DNA of 64,000 nucleotides, from sequence record MT446412.1; one strand, given 5' to 3'. Under the pieces are notes generated by a model that worked only from the letters and a program-made list of their open reading frames with translations, had not been told where the DNA came from and made no database searches. The stretch's first letter is position 1; each line of letters starts with the position of its first letter. Of this stretch, positions 8,569-58,329 are shown piece by piece. A program made the position numbers and the translations under genes. This stretch comes from Escherichia virus TH41.

Positions 8569-8598
8569 GTTTACAACGGCAATGGATTGCCGTATGAT
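8569..8598 (+). promoter_or_regulatory. early promoter (cassette type) with spacer hairpin
   Basis: GTTTACA -35, 8-bp inverted repeat ACGGCAAT/ATTGCCGT in the spacer, TATGAT -10; leader CATCAACTGATGA before the imm ATG. Confidence 0.55.
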
Positions 8599-11234: not shown

Positions 11235-12658
11235 AAACTATTTTATCCCAGCTACTCTTTAACAAGGAATATTTTGTTAAAGTCTGGCCATATCTGAATA
11301 ACACATATTTTGAAAAGGGTCCAGCAAAGACCCTTTTTAATACGATTAACGAACACGTAAAAGAATATCAAGCGGTACCAACTAAGACTGCACTTGATAT
11401 CGCGCTCGACAGTTCTGACCTTTCTGAAGTCGAATATGAAGGCACAAAGAAACTCTTAGGAGTCCTGGCCGATACTCCAGAAGACCAGGAATGGTTGGTT
11501 AAAGAAACCGAGAAGTATGTACAGAAGTCTGCGATGTTCAATGCCACATCCAGGATTATCGAAATCCAGAGCAATGCCGAACTTCCGAAAGATAAACGTG
11601 ATAAACGAATCCCGGATATTGGTGCTATCCCTGACATCATGCGCGATGCATTGTCTATCTGTTTTGACTCTGCTCTGGGCCATGACTGGTTAAACGATTA
11701 CGAAGCTCGATTCCAGACTTATCTGAACAAATCGAAGAAGGTTCCGTTCCGTATTAACATCCTGAATAAAATCACGAAGGGCGGGGTTGAGTACGGTACA
11801 GAGAACGTTTTACTGGCCGGGACGAACGTCGGCAAATCCCTTGGACTTTGTTCGCTGGCGGCTGACTATCTTCAGACTGGTCATAATGTGCTTTATATAA
11901 GCATGGAAATGGCTGAAGAAGTATGTGCCAAACGTATTGATGCCAACTTGCTGGATGTGTCTCTGGATGATATTGATGAAGGTCATGTGTCATGGGCGGA
12001 ATACAAAAGTAAGATGGAAAAATGGCGTGCAGCCGGGACCCTTGGGACTCTGAAGATAAAACAATATCCAACTGGCGGTGCTCATGCGGATACCTTCCGT
12101 GCATTGCTGAATGAATACAAACTGAAGCAAGGGTTTGTGCCGGATGTGATTATTGTTGACTACCTGGCAATCTGTGCAAGCTCAAGACTGAAAACGTTTA
12201 CCGAAAACAGTTACGGCCTGATTAAGATGGTTGCAGAAGAACTTCGTGGTCTGGCGGTCGAGAAAAATGTGGTCCTGTGGACTGCAGCGCAGACAACCAG
12301 GGGTGCGAACGTTGCAGCTGAGATTGATATGGCTGACATCGCTGAATCTTTTGGTATTGCTCACACGGCCGACTTTATGTTGGGTGTTGTTGAGACCGAA
12401 GAATTCGCTCAAATGGGACTACAGTTAATCAAACAGCTTAAGTCTCGTTACGGCGATAAGAACTACTATAATAAATTCAAGATGGGTGTTAAGAAAGGTA
12501 ATCAGCGCTGGTACGAGGTTGATGATGATTCAGCTCCTAAACAAGGCCCTACGGTTAAAGAAGCCACTGGTGAGATGAATCGCCAGGCTGAAATGAATAG
12601 ACAAACCAGGGTCAACAGGAGCGACCTGGACGACCTTGCTGCTCAAATGAAATTCTAA
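11219..12658 (+). CDS. 41: replicative DNA helicase gp41 (DnaB family)
   Basis: Walker A GTNVGKS, DnaB-like blocks matching T4 gp41; start probably GTG at 11228 (M-V-E-T-I-L) overlapping gp40 stop. Confidence 0.93.
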   Translation: MVEVVETILSQLLFNKEYFVKVWPYLNNTYFEKGPAKTLFNTINEHVKEYQAVPTKTALDIALDSSDLSEVEYEGTKKLLGVLADTPEDQEWLVKETEKYVQKSAMFNATSRIIEIQSNAELPKDKRDKRIPDIGAIPDIMRDALSICFDSALGHDWLNDYEARFQTYLNKSKKVPFRINILNKITKGGVEYGTENVLLAGTNVGKSLGLCSLAADYLQTGHNVLYISMEMAEEVCAKRIDANLLDVSLDDIDEGHVSWAEYKSKMEKWRAAGTLGTLKIKQYPTGGAHADTFRALLNEYKLKQGFVPDVIIVDYLAICASSRLKTFTENSYGLIKMVAEELRGLAVEKNVVLWTAAQTTRGANVAAEIDMADIAESFGIAHTADFMLGVVETEEFAQMGLQLIKQLKSRYGDKNYYNKFKMGVKKGNQRWYEVDDDSAPKQGPTVKEATGEMNRQAEMNRQTRVNRSDLDDLAAQMKF

Positions 12659-12677
12659 AGACCTTCGGGTCTTTTTC
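12658..12677 (+). terminator. intrinsic terminator (TTCG tetraloop)
   Basis: AGACC-TTCG-GGTCT followed by TTTTT right after gene 41 stop. Confidence 0.65.
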
Positions 12678-12685
12678 ATTTAGAG

Positions 12686-12715
12686 GTTTACAACACCATA
12701 AAAAGGGTGTACTAT
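12686..12715 (+). promoter_or_regulatory. early promoter cassette
   Basis: GTTTACA, spacer hairpin ACACC..GGTGT, TACTAT; leader CATCAACTACTGATGAGG. Confidence 0.5.
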
Positions 12716-12746
12716 TATCCCATCAACTACTGATGAGGATAATAAA

Positions 12747-12995: not shown

Positions 12996-13024
12996 TGTAC
13001 AAGCCCCTTGTCTTAGGACATAAT
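12995..13024 (+). promoter_or_regulatory. early promoter cassette
   Basis: GTGTACA, 17 nt, CATAAT; leader CCATACTGAGTT. Confidence 0.6.
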
Positions 13025-13073
13025 GATTCCATACTGAGTTACACAATAAACCAACTGTTAAAAGGAAAACCAT

Positions 13074-13376: not shown

Positions 13377-13383
13377 GTGAATA

Positions 13384-13406
13384 AAGGGGCTTACAGCCCC
13401 TTTTTC
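13384..13406 (+). terminator. intrinsic terminator fused to a -10/leader
   Basis: GGGGCT-TAC-AGCCCC followed by TTTTT, then TATAAT and leader CTATCAACTACTGGAG. Confidence 0.65.
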
Positions 13407-13444
13407 TTATGTTATAATGACTCTATCAACTACTGGAGAATAAA

Positions 13445-14308: not shown

Positions 14309-14338
14309 GTGTACATCAAAGGGGTAATGCAGTATATT
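14309..14338 (+). promoter_or_regulatory. early promoter cassette
   Basis: GTGTACA, 17 nt, TATATT; leader CTATCAACTACTGAGGAG. Confidence 0.6.
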
Positions 14339-14366
14339 ATCCCTATCAACTACTGAGGAGATTGAA

Positions 14367-18665: not shown

Positions 18666-18690
18666 TAGGGAACCTTCGGGTTCCCTTTTT
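18666..18690 (+). terminator. intrinsic terminator (TTCG tetraloop)
   Basis: GGGAACC-TTCG-GGTTCCC followed by TTTTT. Confidence 0.7.
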
Positions 18691-20509: not shown

Positions 20510-20565
20510 TTTACTTACTCCCCTCCTAATGACATAATGGTCTTTCTTACAACAGAGAGGCCATT

Positions 20566-21126
20566 ATGAACATCATCAAATCTGATACCGAACCCAACCA
20601 GTTAAAATTTAATGAAATGGAGATAGCTTCATTATTTGAATGCCGCGCATCAAAGGTTGATAAGACCTTACATTCAAACATCAACTCAATCATCAAGTCA
20701 AGGTTGTCTATACCTGATACAGTCTTGTATCGTGGGGTAACCCAGCAAGAGATTGATTTGTTAGATGAAGCAAAAGAATCAATGCAACCTTTTGAATTTG
20801 GAAGGATAACCTCCTTTACAGAAGACTATGGTATTGCCAGGGATTTTGCTGCAATGGAATATGTGTCAAGGACTATCATCAGATTGAATCATACAAAAGC
20901 TTTTTGTTATCATGATGCGATGCGCAAAATCGCGCTTGACGTTCCACTGGAATTCTTCAATACAGCCTCTGGTTCCGAACAGGCAGCAACGTTAAGGCGT
21001 GAAGAATACATGGACATGATTGATTCTGAGCTTGAATGGTTTGTTCCAGTTGACCAGAAATTCGTGATAGTTGATGCTGGATTTGTTGATGATTATTATG
21101 TTCTTGACTGTGTACAAGAGCAATAA
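20566..21126 (+). CDS. mono-ADP-ribosyltransferase, ModA/ModB family (first copy)
   Basis: R-S-E motif set: LYRG, TSFT, ELEWFVP; 186 aa; T4 modB position. Confidence 0.6.
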   Translation: MNIIKSDTEPNQLKFNEMEIASLFECRASKVDKTLHSNINSIIKSRLSIPDTVLYRGVTQQEIDLLDEAKESMQPFEFGRITSFTEDYGIARDFAAMEYVSRTIIRLNHTKAFCYHDAMRKIALDVPLEFFNTASGSEQAATLRREEYMDMIDSELEWFVPVDQKFVIVDAGFVDDYYVLDCVQEQ

Positions 21127-21844: not shown

Positions 21845-21873
21845 GTGTACACACCCAATGGATGGTGTATAAT
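21845..21873 (+). promoter_or_regulatory. early promoter cassette
   Basis: GTGTACA, 16 nt, TATAAT inside ATGGAT..ATCCAT inverted repeat; leader CCATACTGAGTT. Confidence 0.6.
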
Positions 21874-21920
21874 GAATCCATACTGAGTTGCCAAATCGTC
21901 CGTAAGATGAGAAAAATATC

Positions 21921-22968: not shown

Positions 22969-24293
22969 TTAAATTTGAAGACTTGAACACAGGACAAAAA
23001 GAAGCTTTTGATTATATCACTGAAGCTATTCAGCGACGTTCAGGGGAATGTATCACTCTGAATGGTCCAGCTGGTACAGGTAAGACCACTCTGACAAAAT
23101 TTGTCATTGACCATCTAGTGCGTAATGGAGTTATGGGAATTGTGCTTGCTGCGCCAACTCACCAGGCGAAAAAAGTTTTATCTAAATTGTCTGGTCAAAC
23201 CGCGAATACAATCCATAGTATCCTGAAGATTAACCCGACCACATATGAAGACCAAAACGTTTTTGAACAACGCGAAATGCCTGACATGTCAAAATGCAAT
23301 GTTCTGGTTTGTGATGAAGCAAGTATGTATGACGGGTCTCTGTTTAAGATTATTCTTAACTCTGTTCCTGAATGGTGTACTATTCTTGGGATTGGTGATA
23401 TGCACCAGCTGCAGCCAGTTGACCCAGGAAGCACACAACAAAAGATAAGCCCATTCTTTACGCATCCTAAGTTCAAACAGATTCATCTGACTGAGGTCAT
23501 GCGAAGCAATGCTCCTATCATTGAAGTGGCGACAGAAATTCGTAATGGTGGTTGGTTCCGTGACTGTATGTATGATGGTCATGGTGTACAGGGTTTCACC
23601 TCACAAACCGCTTTAAAGGATTTCATGATAAACTATTTCAGTATTGTAAAAGATGCTGATATGTTGATGGAAAACAGGATGTATGCGTACACGAATAAAT
23701 CAGTTGAAAAACTGAACAATATTATTCGTCGCAAGCTCTATGAAACGGATAAAGCATTTTTACCGTATGAAGTCCTGGTTATGCAAGAGCCACACATGAA
23801 AGAGCTGGAATTTGAAGGCAAGAAATTCAGCGAAACCATTTTTAATAATGGTCAGTTGGTTCGCATCAAGGATTGCAAATACACTTCCACCATTCTCCGT
23901 TGTAAAGGCGAATCGCACCAGTTAGTGATTAATTACTGGGACCTGGAAGTTGAGTCAATTGATGAAGATGAAGAATATCAGGTTGACCGCATTAAAGTTT
24001 TACCAGAAGACCAGCAACCAAAATTCCAGGCATATCTGGCTAAAGTTGCTGACACATACAAACAGATGAAAGCCGCTGGTAAACGTCCGGAGTGGAAAGA
24101 CTTCTGGAAAGCTCGCCGGACCTTCTTGAAAGTTCGTGCTCTTCCGGTCAGTACAATTCACAAGGCCCAGGGCGTTTCAGTGGACAAAGCATTCATCTAT
24201 ACTCCATGCATCCATATGGCCGAAGCTTCATTAGCGAGCCAGTTGGCTTATGTAGGAATCACACGAGCGAGGTACGACGCATATTATGTATAA
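22965..24293 (+). CDS. dda: DNA helicase Dda (SF1)
   Basis: 442 aa; Walker A GPAGTGKTT, Walker B VLVCDEASM; size of T4 Dda. Confidence 0.9.
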   Translation: MIKFEDLNTGQKEAFDYITEAIQRRSGECITLNGPAGTGKTTLTKFVIDHLVRNGVMGIVLAAPTHQAKKVLSKLSGQTANTIHSILKINPTTYEDQNVFEQREMPDMSKCNVLVCDEASMYDGSLFKIILNSVPEWCTILGIGDMHQLQPVDPGSTQQKISPFFTHPKFKQIHLTEVMRSNAPIIEVATEIRNGGWFRDCMYDGHGVQGFTSQTALKDFMINYFSIVKDADMLMENRMYAYTNKSVEKLNNIIRRKLYETDKAFLPYEVLVMQEPHMKELEFEGKKFSETIFNNGQLVRIKDCKYTSTILRCKGESHQLVINYWDLEVESIDEDEEYQVDRIKVLPEDQQPKFQAYLAKVADTYKQMKAAGKRPEWKDFWKARRTFLKVRALPVSTIHKAQGVSVDKAFIYTPCIHMAEASLASQLAYVGITRARYDAYYV

Positions 24294-24531
24294 AGTACAT
24301 AAAGAAGATTTAGATACTCTTATCTATGGTATTCAGGACGCGGTTGAATTTTTCGAAGATAATCCGACTATCGTCGTGCAGGGTAATTACGTTTTACTGG
24401 AACTGAATCTTATTCGGAAACGTATGGCCGCGATTGAATATTTTAACAATGAAGAGCCAGGGATTTTTATCTCCGACTATGTTGCTGGTGAAATTCAGAA
24501 ATTAAAAGAGATGTGCGATGGTTGCTGGTGA
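24286..24531 (+). CDS. hypothetical protein (81 aa)
   Basis: ORF whose 3' end lies in the tandem 40-bp duplication. Confidence 0.5.
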   Translation: MYKVHKEDLDTLIYGIQDAVEFFEDNPTIVVQGNYVLLELNLIRKRMAAIEYFNNEEPGIFISDYVAGEIQKLKEMCDGCW

Positions 24532-24560
24532 AATTCAAAAATTAAAAGAGATGTGCGATG
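24481..24560 (+). repeat. perfect tandem duplication, 2 x 40 bp with 1 mismatch
   Basis: GTTGCTGGTGAAATTCA(G/A)AAATTAAAAGAGATGTGCGATG repeated head-to-tail; second copy ends in the dexA start codon. Confidence 0.9.
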
Positions 24561-25277: not shown

Positions 25278-25308
25278 CATCTCATCAACTACTGATGAGG
25301 ATAACAAA

Positions 25309-26325: not shown

Positions 26326-26355
26326 GTGTACAAACTCGTGGGGCCAGAGTATAAT
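26326..26355 (+). promoter_or_regulatory. early promoter cassette
   Basis: GTGTACA, 17 nt, TATAAT flanked by GGGGCCA..TGGTCCC imperfect inverted repeat. Confidence 0.6.
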
Positions 26356-26397
26356 GGTCCCACTGGAGAATAAACTTATTAATCAAGAGAGAAAATT

Positions 26398-30475: not shown

Positions 30476-30478
30476 CCA

Positions 30479-30501
30479 AAAGGACCTTCGGGTCCTTTTT
30501 T
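30479..30501 (+). terminator. intrinsic terminator (TTCG tetraloop)
   Basis: AGGACC-TTCG-GGTCCT followed by TTTTTT. Confidence 0.7.
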
Positions 30502-34797: not shown

Positions 34798-35391
34798 ATG
34801 ATTCAGAAGAGTAAAACATGGGAGCATCTGAAAAAGATGCCCTCCTTTCTTTATACAAAGGAAGACTTAACCCCCGAATCCCTGCAAAAGATTGTAGATA
34901 CAGCCAGGTATTCATTGCGTAAAGACCCGGGTCAGGACCGTGAGCAAGTCATGCAAAGATGTATGGTGGCTACAATGGCTGAACAAGCTATTGCTAAATG
35001 GACTTCAGGTTTTTTATGTGGCGGTGATGAAGATTACGATAATCCTTATTCCTTTGCATTTGATGTAGTTTCGAAGGAAGGGGTAAGAATCGAAGTCAAG
35101 ACTCATCAGTCTGGTTCCAAATGGATATCCGTACATACTGGTCACCAGGGTGATTATCCACATGGTTACGGGGTTAATCTTGGCCCTTTTATGCAGCACA
35201 AGCTTGCTGACCTTATGATTATGTTTAATGTAAAAGAGACTCTCAAAGGTTATAGATTTAAACCAAAATTCCTTGCTGGGCCTGGTGCTTTCGTTCCTGA
35301 GTCTGGTCTTGTGCAGAAATCACAAGGGGATGGCTGGTACCTCCGTTCTTGTTCAGAAGAAAAATTTCCCTATCACCGGTTTACAAGCTGA
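34798..35391 (+). CDS. hypothetical protein with PD-(D/E)xK-like nuclease motif (about 197 aa)
   Basis: ORF 34714..35391 with ATG at 34798; FAFDVV...IEVKT resembles D...E-x-K; in the region where T4 has denB. Confidence 0.5.
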   Translation: MIQKSKTWEHLKKMPSFLYTKEDLTPESLQKIVDTARYSLRKDPGQDREQVMQRCMVATMAEQAIAKWTSGFLCGGDEDYDNPYSFAFDVVSKEGVRIEVKTHQSGSKWISVHTGHQGDYPHGYGVNLGPFMQHKLADLMIMFNVKETLKGYRFKPKFLAGPGAFVPESGLVQKSQGDGWYLRSCSEEKFPYHRFTS

Positions 35392-35403
35392 ACCAACTGT
35401 GTA

Positions 35404-35437
35404 ATAATGTCCTCATACCAACAAATGAGGACATTAT
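35404..35437 (+). promoter_or_regulatory. 13-bp stem-loop sequestering the RBS of the downstream ORF
   Basis: TAATGTCCTCAT-accaacaa-ATGAGGACATTA perfect stem; GAGGA Shine-Dalgarno lies in the 3' arm, ATG at 35439. Confidence 0.6.
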
Positions 35438-35438
35438 C

Positions 35439-35714
35439 ATGGAACACGTTACTACTCACAACATCAAACAAATTCTTATCCAAGCACTCAAAAACAACAA
35501 CATCAATTTTCCAACCCATGAAATTTTTGATGTAGCATTCAACGAAGTCCAGGGTCAAGTTGCATATTATGACGTTATCGTTTATCTTTCAGAATTTGAA
35601 GTCTACCACCTGACTGAAATTGCTTTCTATCTCTATCGTGGGACTGCAGATTTTACTGGGGTCGTGAATGCAGTTGGCGCATATAAAGAAGTTAAAGAAC
35701 AAATGCACAATTAA
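35439..35714 (+). CDS. hypothetical protein (91 aa)
   Basis: ORF 35349..35714 with ATG at 35439. Confidence 0.5.
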   Translation: MEHVTTHNIKQILIQALKNNNINFPTHEIFDVAFNEVQGQVAYYDVIVYLSEFEVYHLTEIAFYLYRGTADFTGVVNAVGAYKEVKEQMHN

Positions 35715-35724
35715 TTAAAAAGTA

Positions 35725-35754
35725 GTGTACATCAGTATGGAGTCTATGTATAAT
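35725..35754 (+). promoter_or_regulatory. early promoter cassette
   Basis: GTGTACA, 17 nt, TATAAT; leader CCATACTGAGTT. Confidence 0.6.
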
Positions 35755-35788
35755 GATTCCATACTGAGTTACCAAACTGGAGAATAAA

Positions 35789-35944
35789 ATGAAACCTGCT
35801 CAATATGCAATGACTTTATACCTTGAAGTTAATGGCGATATTACTGAATTTTTTAAATTAATGCAACAGCGCGGAAAAAGTTTTGCAGTTACTGAGCGTC
35901 AATTTTACGCTTGCCGTAAAAATACATACAATCGTTATGCGTGA
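35789..35944 (+). CDS. small hypothetical protein (51 aa)
   Basis: ATG after GGAGAA RBS directly after the cassette leader. Confidence 0.35.
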   Translation: MKPAQYAMTLYLEVNGDITEFFKLMQQRGKSFAVTERQFYACRKNTYNRYA

Positions 35945-35954
35945 GGAAAACAGA

Positions 35955-36221
35955 ATGGATATTAAATTATACTACGCCAAACACAAAGTTACAGGTATGG
36001 TTGTTGCTGCTATGTATGATGCGTCAGGTGATGGTGATGATATTACTACAGAATTGTCTCTTTCTGAATGTAAATTTCTTCGCCCGCTAGTTGCCTCAAA
36101 GCGTGATTTAAAAAAGCTTATTGATGGAAAACTGGATAATGTTGATGGCATAGATATTCTTTATGACCTTCGCACCGCATTGCACAGGGGTCTGATTGAA
36201 ATAAAAGAGGTGATATTTTGA
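35955..36221 (+). CDS. hypothetical protein (88 aa)
   Basis: ORF 35883..36221 with ATG at 35955. Confidence 0.5.
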   Translation: MDIKLYYAKHKVTGMVVAAMYDASGDGDDITTELSLSECKFLRPLVASKRDLKKLIDGKLDNVDGIDILYDLRTALHRGLIEIKEVIF

Positions 36222-36311
36222 GCAGCAAAACCTGGTGTCTTATCTGGATGTTGTGTATCCCAGTAATTTGCGTTTGTTTTAGTTTATTATTAATGAAACT
36301 TGCATAAAAGA

Positions 36312-36340
36312 GTGTACATCTCCGGTGGTTGTAGTATAAT
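36312..36340 (+). promoter_or_regulatory. early promoter cassette
   Basis: GTGTACA, 16 nt, TATAAT; leader CTATCAACTACTGGAG. Confidence 0.55.
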
Positions 36341-36360
36341 GAACCTATCAACTACTGGAG

Positions 36361-36483
36361 ATGATTATGAAAAAGTTACTTAAAGCCATTTGGAACATGT
36401 TTGTACTGTTTGTTGTCCTGAGCATTTTCCCAATTGTTTTTATGATTGACCATGTACGCGTTTACTTTAACTATTTCTTTTGA
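36361..36483 (+). CDS. small membrane peptide (40 aa)
   Basis: ATG after the leader; MIMKKLLKAIWNMFVLFVVLSIFPIVF. Confidence 0.3.
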   Translation: MIMKKLLKAIWNMFVLFVVLSIFPIVFMIDHVRVYFNYFF

Positions 36484-36493
36484 GGATAATATT

Positions 36494-36700
36494 ATGAATT
36501 ACAATTCACAATTTCAGAAATCTAATCGTCGCTTTGACTTTATGTTCAAGTTTATTGTGGCAATGATTATCCTGATTTTCATTGGTGCCATTGCAATGAT
36601 TGGTTTCCAGCTCTGGATTGCTGCTGAAGTGTTCACACAAATCCAGGATAATGGTTTGAAGTCTGTTGTTGATGTAATTTGGAATGGTGCTAAGCAATGA
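36494..36700 (+). CDS. small membrane protein (68 aa)
   Basis: ORF 36446..36700 with ATG at 36494 after GAGGA. Confidence 0.45.
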   Translation: MNYNSQFQKSNRRFDFMFKFIVAMIILIFIGAIAMIGFQLWIAAEVFTQIQDNGLKSVVDVIWNGAKQ

Positions 36701-36942
36701 AACTTTTTAAAGACATTGCAGTTGGTGAAAAATTTGTCCTGGGTAATGGTCAACAACTGATTCGCATTTCGCCTTTAATGGATAACAGTGAGCGCCCTGT
36801 GCGTACTGAAAACTGTTTGGATTATCCTTTTTATCAGAAACGTTTTGCAATTGAAAATAATACTGAGTGCTTCACAGTTGATGAACTGATGGAATCATCA
36901 GAAGAAGTTGACTTGTGGGATGGCGCGGTAGATGTAGAATAG
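36697..36942 (+). CDS. hypothetical protein (81 aa)
   Basis: ORF overlapping the previous stop. Confidence 0.5.
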   Translation: MKLFKDIAVGEKFVLGNGQQLIRISPLMDNSERPVRTENCLDYPFYQKRFAIENNTECFTVDELMESSEEVDLWDGAVDVE

Positions 36943-36971
36943 TGTACAAACTCATGGGAGCAGAGTATAAT
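36942..36971 (+). promoter_or_regulatory. early promoter cassette
   Basis: GTGTACA, 17 nt, TATAAT. Confidence 0.6.
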
Positions 36972-37009
36972 GTTCCCGTGGATAATAAAATTTAATTGAG
37001 GAAAATATT

Positions 37010-37354
37010 ATGTCTAAAGTATTTTTTGGTAATCGCAACATTATGTTCTTTAAACAGATTAGCATATCAGAAGCATTTGATTTAAGTTATTCAGGTGGTA
37101 CAAAAGCTGTTAACCTTAAAAATTTGATGTCTGCAGAATTTGCATTCTATCAGGACCCTGAAACTGGTTTCTATAAATTTATTAAGTTCCGCATGACTAT
37201 GGACCGCGATTATCGCGATGTTTATTATACAAGTTATGAAAGTGTTGTGAATGCAATTCGTGAAGCTTATGGGTTGGATTCGTTGTCTCTTGACCGTCTG
37301 TATAATGCAAGCCTTTACACCAGTGGATTTATTTTAGAACAACTACAAAAATAG
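37010..37354 (+). CDS. hypothetical protein (114 aa)
   Basis: ORF after the cassette. Confidence 0.55.
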   Translation: MSKVFFGNRNIMFFKQISISEAFDLSYSGGTKAVNLKNLMSAEFAFYQDPETGFYKFIKFRMTMDRDYRDVYYTSYESVVNAIREAYGLDSLSLDRLYNASLYTSGFILEQLQK

Positions 37355-37383
37355 TGTACAAACTCTTGGGGTCAGAGTATAAT
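37354..37383 (+). promoter_or_regulatory. early promoter cassette with -10 inside a perfect hairpin
   Basis: GTGTACA, 17 nt, TATAAT; GGGGTCA-gagtataa-TGACCCC 7-bp inverted repeat (37368-37389). Confidence 0.6.
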
Positions 37384-37427
37384 GACCCCACTGGAGCACA
37401 AAACTTTAACTTACTGAGGAAATTAAT

Positions 37428-37877
37428 ATGACTACTTACATGACCCGTCGTGACGTACTGAATGCTGGTGCTACCACTGTTGCTTATATCCATAATGGTA
37501 ATTATGTTGCCGGTCGCCCAACTAAAGAAGCTATCGCTCAACCAGGTTTTTATTTCGTGGTTAAAGGTGAAGGCGAATCACGTATTGTTGCTGCACGTTT
37601 TTATGTTGGTAACCAACGTTCACAACAAGGGTTTGACACTGTATTAAGTCACATCCGCAAACAACGTTCACAATTGTCTCGCACAATGGCGAACAATGGT
37701 GTTATCTATGAAGTCCTGTTTGTTCCAGTTTCTAAAATGAAACCCCTGACAACTGGTTATGGTAAAGGTCAAATTGCGATGGCGTTCACTCGCTCACATA
37801 GTTCTGATTGCCAGACCCTTTCAGAAATGAATCGCATGCTTGCTGATAACTTTAAATTCATTCTGCAGAGCTATTAA
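37428..37877 (+). CDS. Ndd-like protein (149 aa)
   Basis: Size and position (between rIIB and 52) as T4 nucleoid-disruption protein Ndd; recalled similarity, not verified. Confidence 0.5.
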
Positions 37878-37878
37878 T

Positions 37879-38052
37879 ATGAGACATTTCTTTACAATGG
37901 GTTACCTATTTGTTTTAGCCCTATTTGTTATTACAGGAGCCTTTATAGCCTTTGGTGCTCCATTTAATGATAAAGTTGCTGTTACTATGTGCTTTAGTGG
38001 TGGGTATATCTGTTTTGAACGCTTATGCAAAATGTGTGGTATATATGAGTAA
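37879..38052 (+). CDS. small membrane protein (57 aa)
   Basis: ORF 37840..38052 with ATG at 37879. Confidence 0.4.
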
Positions 38053-38132
38053 TTTCCATAACGAACATGTGATGCAATGGCATCGTCATAATCTGAAATT
38101 AACCGGCGTCTTCGGACGTCCTTGAGGAAAAT

Positions 38133-38288
38133 ATGAATAAATTTGTTCATGGTGTAGCTTTTTTCTGCTGGTCATTTTTATTTGTTGGAACATTAATAAC
38201 TGGTGAAACTTCAGTATTTCTGCAGTCAACAGCTCAAGGTGTATTAGCAGTTTTATCACTATTTAAATTATTGGATAAAAATGATTAA
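38133..38288 (+). CDS. small membrane protein (51 aa; T4 ac position)
   Basis: ATG after GAGGAAA RBS; MNKFVHGVAFFCWSFLFVGTL... Confidence 0.4.
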   Translation: MNKFVHGVAFFCWSFLFVGTLITGETSVFLQSTAQGVLAVLSLFKLLDKND

Positions 38289-38421
38289 GAAAATCCTGGG
38301 CTACTCGTTAGCCCTTGCTGCCTTATTGGTGGCGCTGTATTATGGAGTTGTATTTGCATTAGTGCAGGTTGTGCTTTTTATTTCTGATGCTATAATGGCA
38401 GTACATTCGTTAATCTGGTAA
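38281..38421 (+). CDS. small membrane peptide (46 aa)
   Basis: Overlaps the previous stop; MIKKILGYSLALAALLVALYYGVVFALV. Confidence 0.3.
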   Translation: MIKKILGYSLALAALLVALYYGVVFALVQVVLFISDAIMAVHSLIW

Positions 38422-38429
38422 GGTGATAT

Positions 38430-39809
38430 ATGTCTGACGTTTTAAGTATGATGTCCAAACAGTTCAGTGATTCTATGGGGACCCTTAACCCACGCAGTCT
38501 AAAAGACATTATTGACGTGGAAGCATTGTCATATGCTATCTACACTGTGGAAGGTCGTGCCATTCCAAACATGATTGATGGTTTTAAACCAGTTCACAGA
38601 TTTGTTATGGCGAGAGCATTAGACCTGGCTCGTGGTGATAAGAATAAATTCCATAAGGTTGCATCCATTGCAGGTGGCGTAGCTGATTATGGTTATCACC
38701 ATGGCGAAGCATCAGCGGAAGAAGCAACTTCTGGTTTGGTCGCAACATATAAAAATGAATATCCTATGTTTGATGGGCAAGGTAACTTTGGTTCCAGAAT
38801 GGTTCCAGAAGCATCATCAGCTCGTTATGTATTCGCAAGGGTTTCAAAGAACTTTTACAACTTGTTTAAGGATACAGAATATGCTCCGGTCCATCCTGAT
38901 GAAGAACATAAGCCTCCTGCTTTTTATCTTCCTGTTATTCCTACTGTATTACTTAACGCCACTTCTGGGATTGCTGTTGGCTTCGCTACTGATATCCTTC
39001 CTCATTCGTTCCAGGACGTCAAGGAAGCTGTTAAAGCTATCGTGGAAGGTCGTGAGCCGGTTGCTCCGAAAGTAAAATATCCAGAATTCCGTGGTAAAGT
39101 TGTTGAGCTGGAAGAGCCTGGTAAGTATGAACTTCACGGCACATACAAAATGACCTCAAGGACTCAAATGGAAATTACTGAAATCCCGGTCCAATGGAAC
39201 CTGGAAAAATATACAAGTAAAATCCTGGACCCACTGGAAGAGAAAGGTTTTATCACCTGGAAAGATAACTGCGGCGAGCATGGTTTTGGGTTTAAGATTA
39301 AATTCCGCAAAGAATACAAGTTGGATGGCACTGAAGAAGAGAATCATGAGAAAATCATGAAAGACTTTGGTCTGATTGAGAAACTCTCCCAGAACTTAAC
39401 TGTGCTTAATCACAAAGGCAAATTAGCTGAATACACCAACACGCTTGACCTGATTCGCGATTTCGTTGATGTCCGTAAGACCTATGTTCAAGTGCGAATT
39501 GACAGTAAGATTAAAGAAACTGAAGCGGCATTTAAACTGGCCCGGGCAAAAGTCTTCTTTATTAAAGAAGTGATTGATGGTAAGGTTGTTATCCAGGGGA
39601 AACCTCGTAAGAAGTTGATTGAGGAACTCCAGGCGAGTGAAATATATGGCGATTATGCAGAGAAGTTAGTGGCGATGAACATCTACCATATGACCTCTGA
39701 TGAAGCCAAGAAGCTTGCAGACGAAGCAAAGGCTAAGAAAGCTGAGCATGAGTACTGGAAGACAACTGATGTTAAAACTGAATACCTTAATGATTTGGAG
39801 GCTCTATGA
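38430..39809 (+). CDS. 52: DNA topoisomerase II medium subunit gp52 (GyrA-like)
   Basis: 459 aa; breakage-reunion domain blocks; size and position as T4 gp52. Confidence 0.93.
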   Translation: MSDVLSMMSKQFSDSMGTLNPRSLKDIIDVEALSYAIYTVEGRAIPNMIDGFKPVHRFVMARALDLARGDKNKFHKVASIAGGVADYGYHHGEASAEEATSGLVATYKNEYPMFDGQGNFGSRMVPEASSARYVFARVSKNFYNLFKDTEYAPVHPDEEHKPPAFYLPVIPTVLLNATSGIAVGFATDILPHSFQDVKEAVKAIVEGREPVAPKVKYPEFRGKVVELEEPGKYELHGTYKMTSRTQMEITEIPVQWNLEKYTSKILDPLEEKGFITWKDNCGEHGFGFKIKFRKEYKLDGTEEENHEKIMKDFGLIEKLSQNLTVLNHKGKLAEYTNTLDLIRDFVDVRKTYVQVRIDSKIKETEAAFKLARAKVFFIKEVIDGKVVIQGKPRKKLIEELQASEIYGDYAEKLVAMNIYHMTSDEAKKLADEAKAKKAEHEYWKTTDVKTEYLNDLEAL

Positions 39810-39901
39810 GTTTTGGAGTTGAGTTTGCATTGCTTTGTATTTTTGCGGCAATCGCAGGTGTGATTGTTGGTATGTTTATTGGCAATAAGATAGATAAAGA
39901 C

Positions 39902-39926
39902 TAGGACCCTTCGGGGTCCTTTTTAT
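39902..39926 (+). terminator. intrinsic terminator (TTCG tetraloop)
   Basis: AGGACCC-TTCG-GGGTCCT followed by TTTTT. Confidence 0.7.
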
Positions 39927-39938
39927 TTTAAAAAAGTA

Positions 39939-39968
39939 GTGTACAAGTCCCTTGACCTGATGCATAAT
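39939..39968 (+). promoter_or_regulatory. early promoter cassette
   Basis: GTGTACA, 17 nt, CATAAT; leader CCATACTGAGTT. Confidence 0.6.
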
Positions 39969-40017
39969 GATTCCATACTGAGTTACACAATGAATCACAA
40001 AAACTTTGGAGAATAAA

Positions 40018-42405: not shown

Positions 42406-42717
42406 GCACGATTTCAATAAGGCGTCTGTCCATAAGGACAAGAAGAAAACCAAAATGCAGTCCAAACGTAAGCAGAAGCACAAAGGGAATCATTATGAGC
42501 CATAACTTAGAGAACACCATCACCGGTCAACGTACGCACGAGCAGGCTTGCTTTGAGGAATTCCTTGGAGCTGATTTTAAGTTCCAGGAACCAGTTGAAC
42601 AGATGTATCAGGAATATGTTGTACAGATGGAAAATCATGTGTACAACCCAGAGGAATAATAGTATAATACCCTTACTGAATAATTGAATGTCTTATTGAA
42701 TACTTGAGTAAATTAAA

Positions 42718-56805: not shown

Positions 56806-56809
56806 TATA

Positions 56810-56834
56810 AGGGGACCTTCGGGTCCCTTTTTTA
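56810..56834 (+). terminator. intrinsic terminator (TTCG tetraloop)
   Basis: GGGACC-TTCG-GGTCCC followed by TTTTTT. Confidence 0.7.
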
Positions 56835-56847
56835 TTTTCAAAAAGTA

Positions 56848-56877
56848 GTGTACAAGTCCCTTGAGCTAAGGCATAAT
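56848..56877 (+). promoter_or_regulatory. early promoter cassette
   Basis: GTGTACA, 17 nt, CATAAT; leader CATCAACTACTGA. Confidence 0.6.
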
Positions 56878-56915
56878 GATTCCATCAACTACTGATAACA
56901 ACTGAGGAAATAAAA

Positions 56916-57278
56916 ATGGAAATCGGCAAAAAATATGAGTTCAATCCACATCGTATTAAATCTTTCATTGATATTAGTTCATCGAATGCTAGTATGGTTG
57001 ACATCATCCAAGAAAATGGCGGTTGGTTTGAAGTTAAATCAATATCAAGTGCAGACGGCTATGATTATGTAACCGAAATCATTTGTGCTAATGGTGCAAT
57101 CTATAATGATGATGGCATGGGTGATGATTATTTTGAACTTAGTGAAGAAGAGTTTTATTGCTTCCGTGAATACTCTAGTTATACAAAAACACCTTCAGGG
57201 GCGGTTTCTATTAATTGTGTTGTAGATGTTAATAACGTCGACCAAATCATTGAACTTCTACAAAAAGCTTTCAAATAG
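56916..57278 (+). CDS. hypothetical acidic protein (120 aa)
   Basis: ORF; paralogous to 57628..57996. Confidence 0.55.
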   Translation: MEIGKKYEFNPHRIKSFIDISSSNASMVDIIQENGGWFEVKSISSADGYDYVTEIICANGAIYNDDGMGDDYFELSEEEFYCFREYSSYTKTPSGAVSINCVVDVNNVDQIIELLQKAFK

Positions 57279-57280
57279 CA

Positions 57281-57310
57281 GTTTACAACGGGTCTATGAT
57301 TATGTTATTA
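57281..57310 (+). promoter_or_regulatory. early promoter cassette
   Basis: GTTTACA; GGTCTAT..ATAGACC inverted repeat around an AT-rich -10; leader CTATCAACTACATGAGG. Confidence 0.5.
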
Positions 57311-57340
57311 TAGACCTATCAACTACATGAGGAAAATAAA

Positions 57341-57568
57341 ATGGCTAAGGTTAATATTGATATCGTTGATTTTGAATACACTTACGAAGTTATTCGTAAT
57401 CGGTATCCTTCTTTGTGTATGACTTACATTAAAGATACTGAAGTCTTTGGTATTCAAATTGAAGTCCAAGGTCCTCTTGAAGATATTACCCGCTTTATGC
57501 AAAATGAATATTGTGACGGTATGTACCCAGAAGACGCTGAATTTTATATGGGTTTGATTCAAGCTTAG
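57341..57568 (+). CDS. hypothetical protein (75 aa)
   Basis: ORF. Confidence 0.5.
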
Positions 57569-57602
57569 TATACAAACCAACTGGAACATGATAATATGTT
57601 CC
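57568..57602 (+). promoter_or_regulatory. early promoter cassette with -10 in hairpin loop
   Basis: GTATACA; GGAACAT-gataat-ATGTTCC perfect inverted repeat (57583-57602). Confidence 0.5.
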
Positions 57603-57627
57603 CTCAATTGAATATGAGGAAATTAAA

Positions 57628-57996
57628 ATGATGGAAACTGGTAAATTTTACGTATTAGACCCTGCTGCCAAAAAACAATTCATCGCTGGTAGTCCTGATG
57701 ACAATTCGCGTATGATTAAGTTGATGGAACAACATGGTAGTTCCTTCAAAGTCCTGGACATGTGCTTTATTGATGGCGATTATTTTGTTGAAAAAGTTGA
57801 AATGAAAGATGGCACCATCCTGGATAGTATGGATGGTGCTGATGAGTACTTTGAACTCGCTGAATGGGAATTCCGTCACTTCATAGAAGTAGATGGTGAT
57901 GCTCCTGATGTTGATACCCAAACCATTCATGTGCAAGTCAATCACAAAAATGCAGCAGAAGTCATTGCACTGATTAAAGCAACTTTTGGGGTCTAA
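57628..57996 (+). CDS. hypothetical acidic protein (122 aa)
   Basis: ORF; paralogous to 56916..57278. Confidence 0.55.
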   Translation: MMETGKFYVLDPAAKKQFIAGSPDDNSRMIKLMEQHGSSFKVLDMCFIDGDYFVEKVEMKDGTILDSMDGADEYFELAEWEFRHFIEVDGDAPDVDTQTIHVQVNHKNAAEVIALIKATFGV

Positions 57997-58252
57997 CATG
58001 ACTAAAGATGATTTCCTGGATGCAGTAGAAAAAGCAAGCGAACAGTTTGAAGTAATGGGTGTACGAGTTCATAAAGACAGAAATTATGGTCTGGATGTTC
58101 AAACATACTCATTATGGCTTGTTGGTGAGCACAGTCTTGCAACCAATCTGGTGATGGGTATGGATGTTCATCCTTTATTAGTTAAGTTCAGAAGTATGGA
58201 AAAAGCCACCAAGGAAATGATTAAACTTGGCAAATGGCTTGATAAAATTTAA
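57986..58252 (+). CDS. hypothetical protein (88 aa)
   Basis: ORF. Confidence 0.5.
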   Translation: MGSNMTKDDFLDAVEKASEQFEVMGVRVHKDRNYGLDVQTYSLWLVGEHSLATNLVMGMDVHPLLVKFRSMEKATKEMIKLGKWLDKI

Positions 58253-58258
58253 AAAGTA

Positions 58259-58288
58259 GTGTACAACCAAATGGGGCTATGACATAAT
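58259..58288 (+). promoter_or_regulatory. early promoter cassette
   Basis: GTGTACA, 17 nt, CATAAT; leader CCATACTGAGTT. Confidence 0.6.
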
Positions 58289-58329
58289 GGTCCCATACTG
58301 AGTTAACAACTAAAACCCTGGAGAATAAA

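What the first reader, a model, noticed from the sequence alone, without database searches (positions are those of the whole stretch)
37354..37389. The -10 element is embedded in a perfect inverted repeat in several cassettes
At 37368-37389 GGGGTCA-gagtataa-TGACCCC places TATAAT in the loop and 3' arm of a 7-bp stem. The same design occurs at 57583-57602 (GGAACAT-gataat-ATGTTCC), 21858-21881 (ATGGAT..ATCCAT) and 26344-26362, and a spacer hairpin sits at 8576-8593. The recurrence suggests function, for example a protein-binding dyad or structure in the nascent leader, rather than chance.
Basis: seen in the sequence. Interest (0 to 1): 0.45.

Follow-up and report, generated by a model that had tools for sequence, protein, structure and literature searches.

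The report
Known promoter-hairpin cassettes (PeSLs)
The inverted repeats that enclose the -10 boxes are real and under selection, but they are the already described "promoter-early stem-loop" (PeSL) cassettes of T4-type phages, seen here in a VR7-like coliphage, so this is a new example of a known element and not a new kind of signal.

Summary
The window is a T4-type coliphage of the VR7/VR20 group (Gaprivervirus; 98.5% identical to phage UPEC01). The "cassettes" are its sigma-70 early promoters (TGTACA/TTTACA, about 17 nt, TATAAT).

Eight of 21 window cassettes, and 17 of 42 in the complete TH44 genome, have a 7-13 bp stem with its 5' arm in the spacer, the -10 in the loop, and its 3' arm in the discriminator. 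Complementarity within a promoter far exceeds that between promoters (z = 7.8 on 48 non-redundant cassettes). Orthologous promoters keep the pairing with different sequences. Internal mismatches are almost all G.T on the coding strand. One cited example (21858-21881) is no better than chance.

The design is already published. PeSLs (Arbiol 2010; Comeau 2014) include subclasses with the stem-loop overlapping the -10 or lying between -35 and -10. RB49 PeSLs fetched here have the same geometry.

A hairpin in the promoter's own leader is impossible, because transcription should start at the end of the 3' arm.

Most likely the hairpin forms only in RNA read through from the upstream gene and attenuates or stabilises that RNA. 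This step is inferred, not shown.

The parts
37355..37383 (+). Early promoter of ndd: -35 TGTACA (37355-60), 17-nt spacer, -10 TATAAT (37378-83). The stop codon TAG of the upstream ORF (37352-54) abuts the -35.
   Evidence: ndd assigned by synteny with the VR7 annotation.
37367..37390 (+). -10-spanning stem-loop TGGGGTCA / gagtataa / TGACCCCA (8 bp perfect); no T-run follows (tail CTGGAGCA).
   Evidence: (RNA -17.7 kcal/mol, z -4.0), (DNA -9.0). The Bp7 ortholog has CGAGAATCA/TGGTTCTCG at the same place.
26338..26363 (+). -10-spanning stem-loop GTGGGGCCA / gagtataa / TGGTCCCAC (one G.T) in the promoter 26327-26355, upstream of a motB-like gene.
   Evidence: (-18.2, z -4.1). Orthologs: TH57 TGGGGTCG/TGACCCCA; Bp7 GAGGGCCA/TGGCTCTC.
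36952..36981 (+). -10-spanning stem-loop TCATGGGAGCA / gagtataa / TGTTCCCGTGG (11 bp including G.T pairs) in promoter 36943-36971.
   Evidence: -16.8, z -5.1; the minus strand reaches only -7.1; the TH44 ortholog is a perfect TGGGAGCA/TGCTCCCA.
35732..35767 (+). -10-spanning stem-loop TCAGTATGGAGTC / tatgtataat / GATTCCATACTGA (13 bp, one G.T) in promoter 35726-35754.
   Evidence: -19.3, z -6.3.
57583..57602 (+). -10-spanning stem-loop GGAACAT(G) / (g)ataa(t) / (T)ATGTTCC in promoter 57569-57595 (TATACA, 15 nt, GATAAT), upstream of an frd.2-like gene.
   Evidence: (-8.0, z -2.7).
57290..57317 (+). -10-spanning stem-loop GGGTCTATGAT / tatgtt / ATTATAGACCT in promoter 57282-57311 (TTTACA, 18 nt, TATTAT), upstream of an frd.3-like gene.
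   Evidence: (-13.7, z -3.9); TH40 has AGGTCTAT/ATAGACCT.
58271..58296 (+). -10-spanning stem-loop ATGGGGCTAT / gacata / ATGGTCCCAT in promoter 58260-58288 (TGTACA, 17 nt, CATAAT), upstream of an frd.1-like gene.
   Evidence: -14.6, z -3.4; minus strand -6.3, z +0.3.
14320..14344 (+). -10-spanning stem-loop AGGGGTAATG / cagta / TATTATCCCT in promoter 14310-14338 (TGTACA, 17 nt, TATATT).
   Evidence: -10.8, z -3.7; the TH40 ortholog is a perfect AGGGATAAT/ATTATCCCT.
21858..21881 (+). Weak inverted repeat ATGGAT / 12 nt / ATCCAT around the -10 of promoter 21846-21873; probably not a functional stem.
   Evidence: -5.3, z +0.14; not conserved in TH57/TH40.
8576..8593 (+). Spacer stem-loop ACGGCAA / tgga / TTGCCGT between -35 (8570-75) and -10 (8593-98): the PeSL subclass 'between -35 and -10'.
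   Evidence: (z -1.9). Same placement as RB49 PeSL211/210.
12693..12710 (+). Spacer stem-loop ACACC / ataaaaag / GGTGT in cassette 12687-12718; a TTCG-loop terminator lies just upstream (12657-12674).
13383..13403 (+). Canonical intrinsic terminator AAAGGGGCT / tac / AGCCCCTTT plus T-run that overlaps the -35 (CTTACA) of cassette 13390-13418: the PeSL subclass 'overlapping -35'.
39903..39920 (+). TTCG-tetraloop terminator AGGACCC / ttcg / GGGTCCT plus T7, just upstream of cassette 39940-39968, which has no -10 stem: the PeSL subclass 'upstream of -35'.
56809..56830 (+). TTCG-tetraloop terminator AAGGGGACC / ttcg / GGTCCCTTT plus T7 after gene 32, just upstream of cassette 56849-56877, which has no -10 stem.
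20533..20568 (+). Hairpin running from the -10 into the leader: CATAATGGTCTTTCT / tacaac / AGAGAGGCCATTATG. The 5' arm is the -10 plus discriminator; the 3' arm is the Shine-Dalgarno sequence plus ATG of the next gene.
   Evidence: -19.1 kcal/mol; conserved in TH44/TH57/TH40.
35404..35437 (+). Hairpin running from the -10 into the leader: ATAATGTCCTCAT / accaacaa / ATGAGGACATTAT, burying the Shine-Dalgarno sequence of the next gene.
   Evidence: -16.6 kcal/mol.

Best explanation
These are PeSL cassettes (promoter-early stem-loops) of a VR7-like T4-type phage, of the published subclass in which the stem-loop overlaps the -10 box.

Each cassette fits into about 45-90 bp of intergenic DNA. It contains the stop codon of the upstream gene, an A/T-rich stretch, a strong sigma-70 early promoter, one stem-loop, and the Shine-Dalgarno sequence and ATG of the next gene.

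In the -10-spanning form, the 5' arm lies at about -23 to -15 (end of the spacer). The loop is the -10. The 3' arm is the discriminator, about -7 to +1.

Proposed mechanism:
- Shown here: the stems are real, they are selected for pairing and not for sequence, and they are biased toward pairing on the coding strand.
- Inferred from sigma-70 geometry: RNA started at the cassette's own promoter begins at the end of the 3' arm and cannot form the hairpin.
- It follows that the hairpin exists only in RNA that reads through from the upstream gene, where it lies 10-17 nt after that gene's stop codon.
- Inferred, not shown: there it acts in cis on the upstream message. It would attenuate or terminate readthrough (as Arbiol et al. 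reported for one RB49 stem-loop of similar anatomy), protect the 3' end of the upstream message from exonucleases, or both.

Placing the hairpin over the promoter saves space in a tightly packed genome. The repeated cassettes also provide short patches of homology at which gene modules are exchanged.
For: Identity as a PeSL:
- Arbiol 2010 defines five subclasses by stem-loop position, including 'between -35 and -10' and 'overlapping the -10' (the commonest). It describes polyG/polyC arms and marks G-T pairs. Comeau 2014 extends PeSLs to T4/PST and nt-1/KVP40.
- PeSL-like sequences are noted in JS98, the sister clade.
- RB49 PeSLs fetched here (199/198, 186/185, 226/225, 227/226, 228/227) have the same geometry.
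- All five placements occur among the window's 21 cassettes.

Selection for pairing:
- Within- versus between-promoter complementarity: z = 7.8; p = 0.0006 in the window alone.
- Own sequences versus chimeras, folding energy: p = 0.002.
- Ortholog covariation at ndd, motB, 36966 and 14333.
- Fixed register: 62.5% paired against 30-46% when slid; cells changed on both sides 24 against 16.8 +/- 3.1.

Strand bias:
- Allowing G.T raises z to 9.8, while allowing A.C lowers it to 4.9.
- Mismatches are 9 G.T, 1 A.C and 0 other.
- All five G.T-containing window stems fold 5-10 kcal/mol better on the + strand.

RNA-level role on upstream transcripts:
- No cassette has both a -10-spanning stem and a canonical terminator: 0 of 42 in TH44 and 0 of 21 in the window. 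Cassettes without a -10 stem often have a UUCG-loop terminator just upstream.
- The RB49 stem-loop reported to cut lacZ expression like rrnB T1 also lacks a T-run.
Against: - No -10-spanning stem is followed by a T-run (1-3 T in 8 nt, against 5-7 for the canonical terminators in the same window). Intrinsic termination is therefore not predicted by the standard model.
- The only experimental support is one RB49 stem-loop of the spacer type, tested in a plasmid reporter.
- The G.T versus A.C asymmetry is modest: p = 0.02 against 50:50, and only about 0.1 against a composition-matched background.
- The folding-energy difference between + and - strands over all 48 cassettes is not significant (p = 0.24).
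- Mutual exclusion with terminators is only suggestive (Fisher p = 0.06).
- About half of the cassettes have no -10 stem. Some orthologs have lost it or carry an uncompensated mismatch: the 21868 stem in TH57/TH40, and a T.T mismatch in the TH44 copy of 26350.
- Part of the dyad is consensus.
- No transcription start sites or 3' ends were available for this phage.
Confidence: 0.6

Rival explanations
1. DNA-level control of the cassette's own promoter. The dyad would be an operator for a dimeric phage or host protein, for example the unidentified factor that shuts off early promoters about 3 min after infection. Alternatively, an extruded hairpin or cruciform would present or hide the -10.
For: - The outer part of the dyad is conserved in sequence in about half of the cassettes (tGG ... 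CCa).
- Hinton 2010 notes unexplained extra consensus in T4 early promoters and an unexplained early shut-off.
- The perfect stems also fold as DNA on both strands (37361-96: -9.0 and -7.7 kcal/mol).
- Arbiol et al. speculated about a protein that binds GGGG...CCCC.
Against: - The inner arm sequences are not conserved but covary, both between cassettes and between orthologs.
- Mismatches are G.T on the + strand, which become A.C on the other strand. This destroys the minus-strand hairpin that a cruciform would need (36949-84 as DNA: -5.4 against -1.9, z -0.35).
- Only about 40% of early cassettes have the stem, so it cannot be a general shut-off site.
- In an open complex the 5' arm (-23 to -15) stays double-stranded, so the hairpin cannot form there (inference).
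- The stem register varies between cassettes.
Confidence: 0.12
2. The stems are kept mainly as recombination substrates. Cassettes would serve as portable homology, and the hairpin as a structure-specific target, for PeSL-mediated excision, insertion and mini-circle formation. Any RNA effect would be secondary.
For: - Arbiol 2010 mapped crossovers in or next to the stem-loop and detected mini-circles.
- In the frd region the order of gene modules differs between the window and VR7, and every junction lies at the edge of a cassette (57306, 57590, 58283).
- A 157-163 nt indel starts in the leader of cassette 35749.
- In TH40 the motB cassette is identical over 44 nt to the ndd cassette, which suggests cassette conversion.
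- Breakpoints near cassettes: 7 of 36 against 5.3% expected (p = 0.002).
Against: - Against an intergenic-only null the enrichment disappears (2 of 9 against 42%). Most breakpoints (27 of 36) lie at gene boundaries without a cassette.
- Homologous exchange needs shared sequence, yet the stems are the most variable part of the cassette.
- Selection for pairing, with G.T tolerated on one strand, is not explained by duplex homology.
Confidence: 0.18
3. No function of its own. The complementarity would be a by-product of independent promoter constraints (a G-rich spacer motif and a C-rich discriminator), plus chance and common descent of the cassettes.
For: Column-preserving shuffles in a fixed register still give 59% pairing against 62.5% observed. 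The 21858-21881 example is at chance level. About half of the cassettes lack a stem.
Against: - Within- versus between-promoter complementarity, z = 7.8.
- Stems of 8-13 bp with z from -3.4 to -6.3.
- Orthologs in another genus have entirely different arms at the same position.
- All 10 stem mismatches are transitions, and 9 of them are G.T.
- The same design occurs in the distant RB49 lineage.
Confidence: 0.05

Closest known systems
PeSLs (promoter-early stem-loops) of RB49/phi1 (Arbiol et al. 2010, Genome Biol Evol 2:140; PMC2839356)
   Same: An intergenic cassette made of a stop codon, an A/T-rich stretch, a sigma-70-type early promoter, one stem-loop, and the SD/ATG. The stem-loop position is variable, with 'overlapping the -10' and 'between -35 and -10' the commonest. 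Arms are G-rich and C-rich with G-T pairs, and no T-run follows. Cassettes are repeated many times among small early genes. The geometry was verified directly on RB49 sequence.
   Different: A different lineage (Gaprivervirus, not Krischvirus). The -35 is TGTACA/TTTACA and not TTGACA. Arms are less uniformly GGGG/CCCC and often longer (up to 13 bp). In the window, a role in recombination is illustrated by one locus but not shown statistically.
PeSLs of PST/T4 and nt-1/KVP40 (Comeau et al. 2014; PMC4122927)
   Same: T-even-type promoter consensus (TTTACW, 17 nt, TAYWAT) close to the window's. Stem-loops just upstream of the promoter also occur here (12657, 39903, 56809).
   Different: In PST/T4 the stem-loops are described as lying just upstream of the promoter and as AGNA...TCNT. 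Here 40% of cassettes have the stem across the -10, as in RB49.
Intrinsic (Rho-independent) terminators, including the C(UUCG)G hairpins of T4
   Same: A stable G+C-rich RNA hairpin right after a stop codon. Never found together with the canonical terminators in the same cassette.
   Different: No U-run after the stem (1-3 T in 8). The loop is 6-10 nt and is fixed by the -10 sequence, not an optimised tetraloop.
T4 genes e, soc and I-TevI: hairpins containing an internal promoter, so that only long transcripts fold (recalled from the literature, not checked here)
   Same: The logic that a promoter inside an inverted repeat makes the structure specific to readthrough RNA. The window's hairpins that run from the -10 into the leader (20533-20568, 35404-35437) fit this closely, because they bury the SD/ATG.
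   Different: The -10-spanning stems end about 35-45 nt before the start codon and do not touch the ribosome-binding site. The known cases use late promoters.
Hairpin promoters of phage N4 virion RNA polymerase (recalled)
   Same: A promoter associated with a short DNA hairpin.
   Different: N4 promoters are recognised as an extruded template-strand hairpin by a phage polymerase. Here the promoters are ordinary sigma-70 promoters, and the strand bias points to the non-template/RNA strand.

Membership tests
PeSL (promoter-early stem-loop cassette) | [quoted passage not shown] | tested here: met
   TGTACA, 15-21 nt, TATAAT: 7 matches against 0.13 expected. 21 cassettes found with a profile. Upstream 'aaaaagtag' is visible.
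PeSL (promoter-early stem-loop cassette) | A stable stem-loop inside the cassette at one of five positions relative to the promoter (upstream, over the -35, in the spacer, over the -10, downstream) | tested here: met
   8 over the -10; 2-3 in the spacer; 3 over the -35; 3 upstream; 3 from the -10 into the leader; 2 with none. Fold z-scores. Same geometry in RB49 PeSLs.
PeSL (promoter-early stem-loop cassette) | Fills the intergenic space from the stop codon of the upstream gene to the SD/ATG of the downstream gene | tested here: met
   For example, TAG 37352-54 | TGTACA 37355 ... ATG 37428, and stop 36940-42 | TGTACA 36943 ... ATG 37010.
PeSL (promoter-early stem-loop cassette) | G-rich 5' arm and C-rich 3' arm, with G-T pairs tolerated | tested here: met
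   GGGGTCA/TGACCCC, GTGGGGCCA/TGGTCCCAC, ATGGGGCTAT/ATGGTCCCAT and others; mismatches 9 G.T: 1 A.C.
PeSL (promoter-early stem-loop cassette) | Many copies, concentrated in hyperplastic regions among small non-essential early genes | tested here: met
   21 in 64 kb, all on the early-gene strand. Clusters at 12.7-14.3 kb, 35.4-37.4 kb (ndd region) and 56.9-58.3 kb (frd region); none in the tail-fibre block. 42 in the whole TH44 genome.
PeSL (promoter-early stem-loop cassette) | The stem-loop terminates or attenuates transcription coming from upstream | not testable with these tools
   Only the anatomy can be assessed: no T-run, as for the RB49 stem-loop that Arbiol et al. tested. Never found together with canonical terminators (p = 0.06).
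PeSL (promoter-early stem-loop cassette) | Cassettes sit at indel or exchange breakpoints between close relatives | tested here: inconclusive
   7 of 36 breakpoints against 5.3% expected (p = 0.002), but 2 of 9 against 42% with an intergenic null. There is a clear local example in the frd region and a possible cassette conversion in TH40.
Intrinsic terminator | G+C-rich hairpin followed directly by a U-run | tested here: not met
   None of the -10-spanning stems is reported by the terminator scan. Their tails have 1-3 T in 8, against 5-7 for 12657, 13383, 39903 and 56809.
Operator / protein-binding dyad | Arm sequence conserved between sites recognised by the same protein; symmetry on duplex DNA | tested here: not met
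   The inner arms differ between cassettes and between orthologs while pairing is kept. G.T-only mismatches break the symmetry on the other strand. Only the outer tGG/CCa is conserved.
Curated RNA families (Rfam 15) | Match to a covariance model at the gathering score | tested here: not met
   No match anywhere in the window.

The most novel reading that the evidence does not exclude
The -10-spanning hairpins could be a distinct class of U-tract-less RNA element that ends or protects each early message exactly at the next promoter. That would be a factor-dependent or structure-only insulator between tandem strong promoters. Alternatively, the conserved tGG...CCa dyad with its covarying core could be the recognition site for the still unidentified system that shuts off T4-type early promoters about 3 min after infection. 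Neither reading is excluded by the sequence evidence. Neither goes much beyond what the PeSL authors already proposed, unless a new factor is involved.
Probability: 0.08. Interest if true: 0.6.

Novelty: new member of a known kind. Interest (0 to 1): 0.22.

Why it matters
This is mainly a clean-up result. A striking sequence pattern that a naive reader might take for a new regulatory dyad is the published PeSL cassette.

What this analysis adds to the published description:
- A statistical demonstration that the stems are selected for pairing (within- versus between-promoter test and ortholog covariation).
- Evidence that selection acts on the coding strand, consistent with an RNA or single-strand role and not with a duplex-DNA dyad.
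- The observation that -10-spanning stems and canonical terminators do not occur in the same cassette.
- The extension of the -10-overlapping subclass to the VR7/JS98 lineages, where it makes up about 40% of early cassettes.

How a hairpin without a U-run would stop or stabilise transcripts remains an open and testable question. These compact promoter-plus-hairpin units could be useful parts for phage engineering.

Tried and rejected
- A scan of IMG/VR for AGTGTACA-N17-TATAAT returned mostly chance matches in unrelated contigs and was not used. Annotated relatives were fetched instead.
- A fixed-register covariation count over all cassettes was only weakly significant, because half of the cassettes lack the stem, the register varies, and the outer pairs are consensus. 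The register-free within-versus-between test is the appropriate one.
- The + versus - strand folding energy over all 48 cassettes was not significant. The asymmetry is visible only in stems that contain mismatches.
- Breakpoint enrichment at cassettes vanished under an intergenic null.
- Rfam gave nothing.
- The supplement of Arbiol 2010 and the T4 genome review (PMC150520) are not held, so the tested stem-loop was reconstructed from RB49 sequence instead.
- Protein searches and structure prediction were not used, because the feature is non-coding.
- An intrinsic-terminator reading was considered and rejected for the -10-spanning stems (no T-run).
- An N4-type hairpin promoter was considered and rejected (ordinary sigma-70 hexamers; wrong strand).
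Full report
**What the window is.** Megablast of 35000-40000 finds 262 T4-type phage records. The best is Escherichia phage UPEC01 (100% coverage, 98.5% identity), followed by VR20, VR7 and TH44. VR7 and the TH phages are classified as Tevenvirinae, genus Gaprivervirus. Early genes lie on the + strand (rIIB, denB, ndd, gene 52, motA, asiA, rnh, gene 32, frd). A tail-fibre block lies on the - strand at about 43-53.6 kb.

**The observation.** The sequences at the named coordinates are as described, with small corrections:
- The 37368-37389 stem extends to 8 bp (37367-37390).
- The "26344-26362" stem is really 26340-26361, extending to 26338-26363.

TGTACA-N15-21-TATAAT occurs 7 times against 0.13 expected. 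A looser scan and an nhmmer profile find 21 cassettes in the window, all on the + strand. Each has an A/T-rich stretch, TGTACA or TTTACA, a spacer of about 17 nt, a -10, and a conserved start region (..CCAT(C)A(A)CTG..).

**Is the dyad more than chance?** The discriminator is partly consensus. I therefore compared the longest antiparallel complementary run between spacer and discriminator within each promoter with the same measure across promoters.
- Window alone (19 cassettes): permutation p = 0.0006.
- 48 non-redundant cassettes pooled from the window, VR7, Bp7, TH57, TH40 and the whole TH44 genome: own mean 5.27 against cross mean 4.01; 19/48 against 8.1% with at least 6 bp; z = 7.8. Own sequences also fold better than chimeras (p = 0.002).
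- Individual folds against dinucleotide shuffles: 35732-70 -19.3 (z -6.3); 36949-84 -16.8 (z -5.1); 26333-68 -18.2 (z -4.1); 37361-96 -17.7 (z -4.0); 57288-325 -13.7 (z -3.9); 14316-52 -10.8 (z -3.7); 58266-302 -14.6 (z -3.4); 57575-610 -8.0 (z -2.7).
The spacer hairpin at 8576 is marginal (z -1.9). Five cassettes have nothing around the -10.
- A fixed-register count shows 62.5% pairing against 30-46% in slid registers, but 59% in column-preserving shuffles. The outer pairs (tGG/CCa) are therefore class consensus. The cassette-specific signal is in the inner pairs: 24 cells changed on both sides against 16.8 +/- 3.1, reached by 7 of 500 shuffles.

**Orthologs.**
- ndd promoter: TGGGGTCA/TGACCCCA in all Gapriverviruses, but CGAGAATCA/TGGTTCTCG at the same position in Bp7 (Dhakavirus).
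- motB cassette: GTGGGGCCA/TGGTCCCAC (window), TGGGGTCG/TGACCCCA (TH57), GAGGGCCA/TGGCTCTC (Bp7).
- 36966 has G.T pairs in the window and is a perfect TGGGAGCA/TGCTCCCA in TH44.
- 14333 is AGGGGTAA/TTATCCCT in the window and a perfect AGGGATAAT/ATTATCCCT in TH40.
- Counter-examples: the TH44 copy of the motB cassette has a T.T mismatch, and the 21868 stem is lost in TH57/TH40.

**Strand bias.**
- Allowing G.T raises the within-versus-between z to 9.8. Allowing A.C, which is the wobble pair on the other strand, lowers it to 4.9.
- With all mismatch types allowed, the stems contain 9 G.T, 1 A.C and 0 other mismatches, counting Gaprivervirus/Dhakavirus plus RB49. This gives p = 0.02 against 50:50. 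Against a composition-matched cross-promoter background, the G.T versus A.C contrast is only p of about 0.1, whereas G.T against all other types is p = 0.0014.
- The five window stems with G.T fold 5-10 kcal/mol better on the + strand.
- This favours pairing on the + strand (RNA or non-template single strand) over a duplex dyad or cruciform, with moderate strength.

**What it is.** Arbiol et al. 2010 described PeSLs in RB49/phi1. These are sigma-70-like early promoters with an A/T-rich upstream region and a stable stem-loop, often polyG...polyC. There are five subclasses by stem-loop position, the commonest being between -35 and -10 or overlapping the -10, and G-T pairs are marked in their figure. 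They proposed that the stem-loop terminates or attenuates upstream transcription. One stem-loop, PeSL211/210, lowered lacZ expression like rrnB T1. They also proposed that PeSLs mediate modular shuffling through mini-circles. Comeau et al. 2014 extended this to PST/T4 and nt-1/KVP40, and PeSL-like sequences were noted in JS98.

I fetched the RB49 ORF185-229 region. Its PeSLs 199/198, 186/185, 226/225, 227/226 and 228/227 have exactly the window's geometry. The tested 211/210 stem-loop (AGGGGAT / cacgt / ATCCCCT) is of the spacer type and also lacks a T-run.

The window's 21 cassettes show all five placements, and generally one stem-loop each:
- 8 across the -10.
- Spacer type at 8576 and 12693.
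- Over the -35 at 13383, 21099 and 42618.
- UUCG-loop terminators just upstream at 12657, 39903 and 56809.
- Hairpins from the -10 into the leader at 20533, 35404 and 25280.
- None at 13019 and 36335.

**How it most likely works.**
- Shown: the stems exist, are selected for pairing, and are biased to the + strand.
- Inferred from sigma-70 geometry: the cassette's own RNA starts at the end of the 3' arm, so only readthrough RNA from the upstream gene contains the hairpin, 10-17 nt after that gene's stop codon.
- Supporting: no cassette has both a -10-spanning stem and a canonical terminator (0 of 42 in TH44, Fisher p = 0.06; 0 of 21 in the window).
- Against a simple terminator: the tails have 1-3 T in 8 against 5-7 for true terminators, and the terminator scan reports none of these stems.

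I therefore favour attenuation and/or 3'-end protection of the upstream message. The overlap with the promoter would be a space-saving arrangement. The biochemical step remains unproven. Hinton's review confirms that early transcripts extend into downstream genes and that termination between early units matters for timing.

**Recombination.** Breakpoints between the window and VR7/TH44/TH57/TH40 lie near cassettes more often than expected for the whole region (7 of 36 against 5.3%, p = 0.002). Against an intergenic null they do not (2 of 9 against 42%). There is one clear local case. In the frd region the frd.3 module and the frd.2+ORF254c module are in opposite order in the window and in VR7, and all junctions lie at the edges of cassettes 57306, 57590 and 58283. 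In TH40 the motB cassette is identical over 44 nt to the ndd cassette.

**Verdict.** The element is a new member (Gaprivervirus) of a known kind (PeSL, -10-overlapping subclass). Interest is low to moderate. The open point is the mechanism of hairpins that lack a U-run.

Noticed in passing
window 20533-20568; 35404-35437; 25280-25300: Strong hairpins whose 5' arm is the -10 plus discriminator of an early promoter and whose 3' arm is the Shine-Dalgarno sequence and ATG of the next gene (-19.1 and -16.6 kcal/mol), plus a leader hairpin over the SD at 25280-25300. Readthrough RNA would have the ribosome site buried, while RNA from the local promoter would not. This is the logic recalled for T4 e, soc and I-TevI, here with early promoters.
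   Followed up: partly
window 12657-12674, 18667-18686, 30478-30499, 39903-39920, 56809-56830: Canonical terminators with C(UUCG)G tetraloops followed by T-runs, the extra-stable hairpin type long known from T4. Three of them sit just upstream of cassettes that lack a -10 stem.
   Followed up: partly
window 13002-13041, 39946-39985, 56855-56895 (and TH44 L126:47263, L128:13972): Cassettes with a CATAAT -10 carry TTGAC/TTGTC inside the spacer and a conserved CCATACTGAG downstream. The scan reports TTGACC (39952), 16 nt, CATACT (39979), so these may be two overlapping promoters offset by about 12 nt.
   Followed up: no
L125 (TH40) about 11660-11720 versus window 37353-37396: The cassette upstream of the motB-like gene in TH40 is identical over 44 nt to the ndd cassette, while the window's own motB cassette differs at 4 positions. 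This suggests conversion between cassettes about 11 kb apart.
   Followed up: partly
window 56931-58320 versus L121 (VR7) 23555-24537: The frd.3 module and the frd.2+ORF254c module are in opposite order in the window and in VR7. The window also has an extra 120-aa ORF (56916-57278). All junctions lie at cassette edges.
   Followed up: partly
window 42618-42647: Inverted repeat GTTGTACA / 14 nt / TGTACAAC whose 3' arm is the -35 of the asiA promoter, so a reversed copy of the -35 hexamer sits just upstream.
   Followed up: no
window 35791-35954: A stretch of about 160 nt holding a 51-aa ORF is present in the window, TH44 and TH57 but absent from VR7 and TH40. The indel begins in the leader of cassette 35749.
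   Followed up: partly
window 37390-37396, 26363-26369 and many leaders: GGAG lies directly after the 3' arm of two stems (ACTGGAG), and GGAGAATAAA-ATG ribosome sites recur. GGAG is recalled as the target of the T4 RegB endoribonuclease, so cleavage there would leave the hairpin at the 3' end of the upstream fragment. This is speculative.
   Followed up: no
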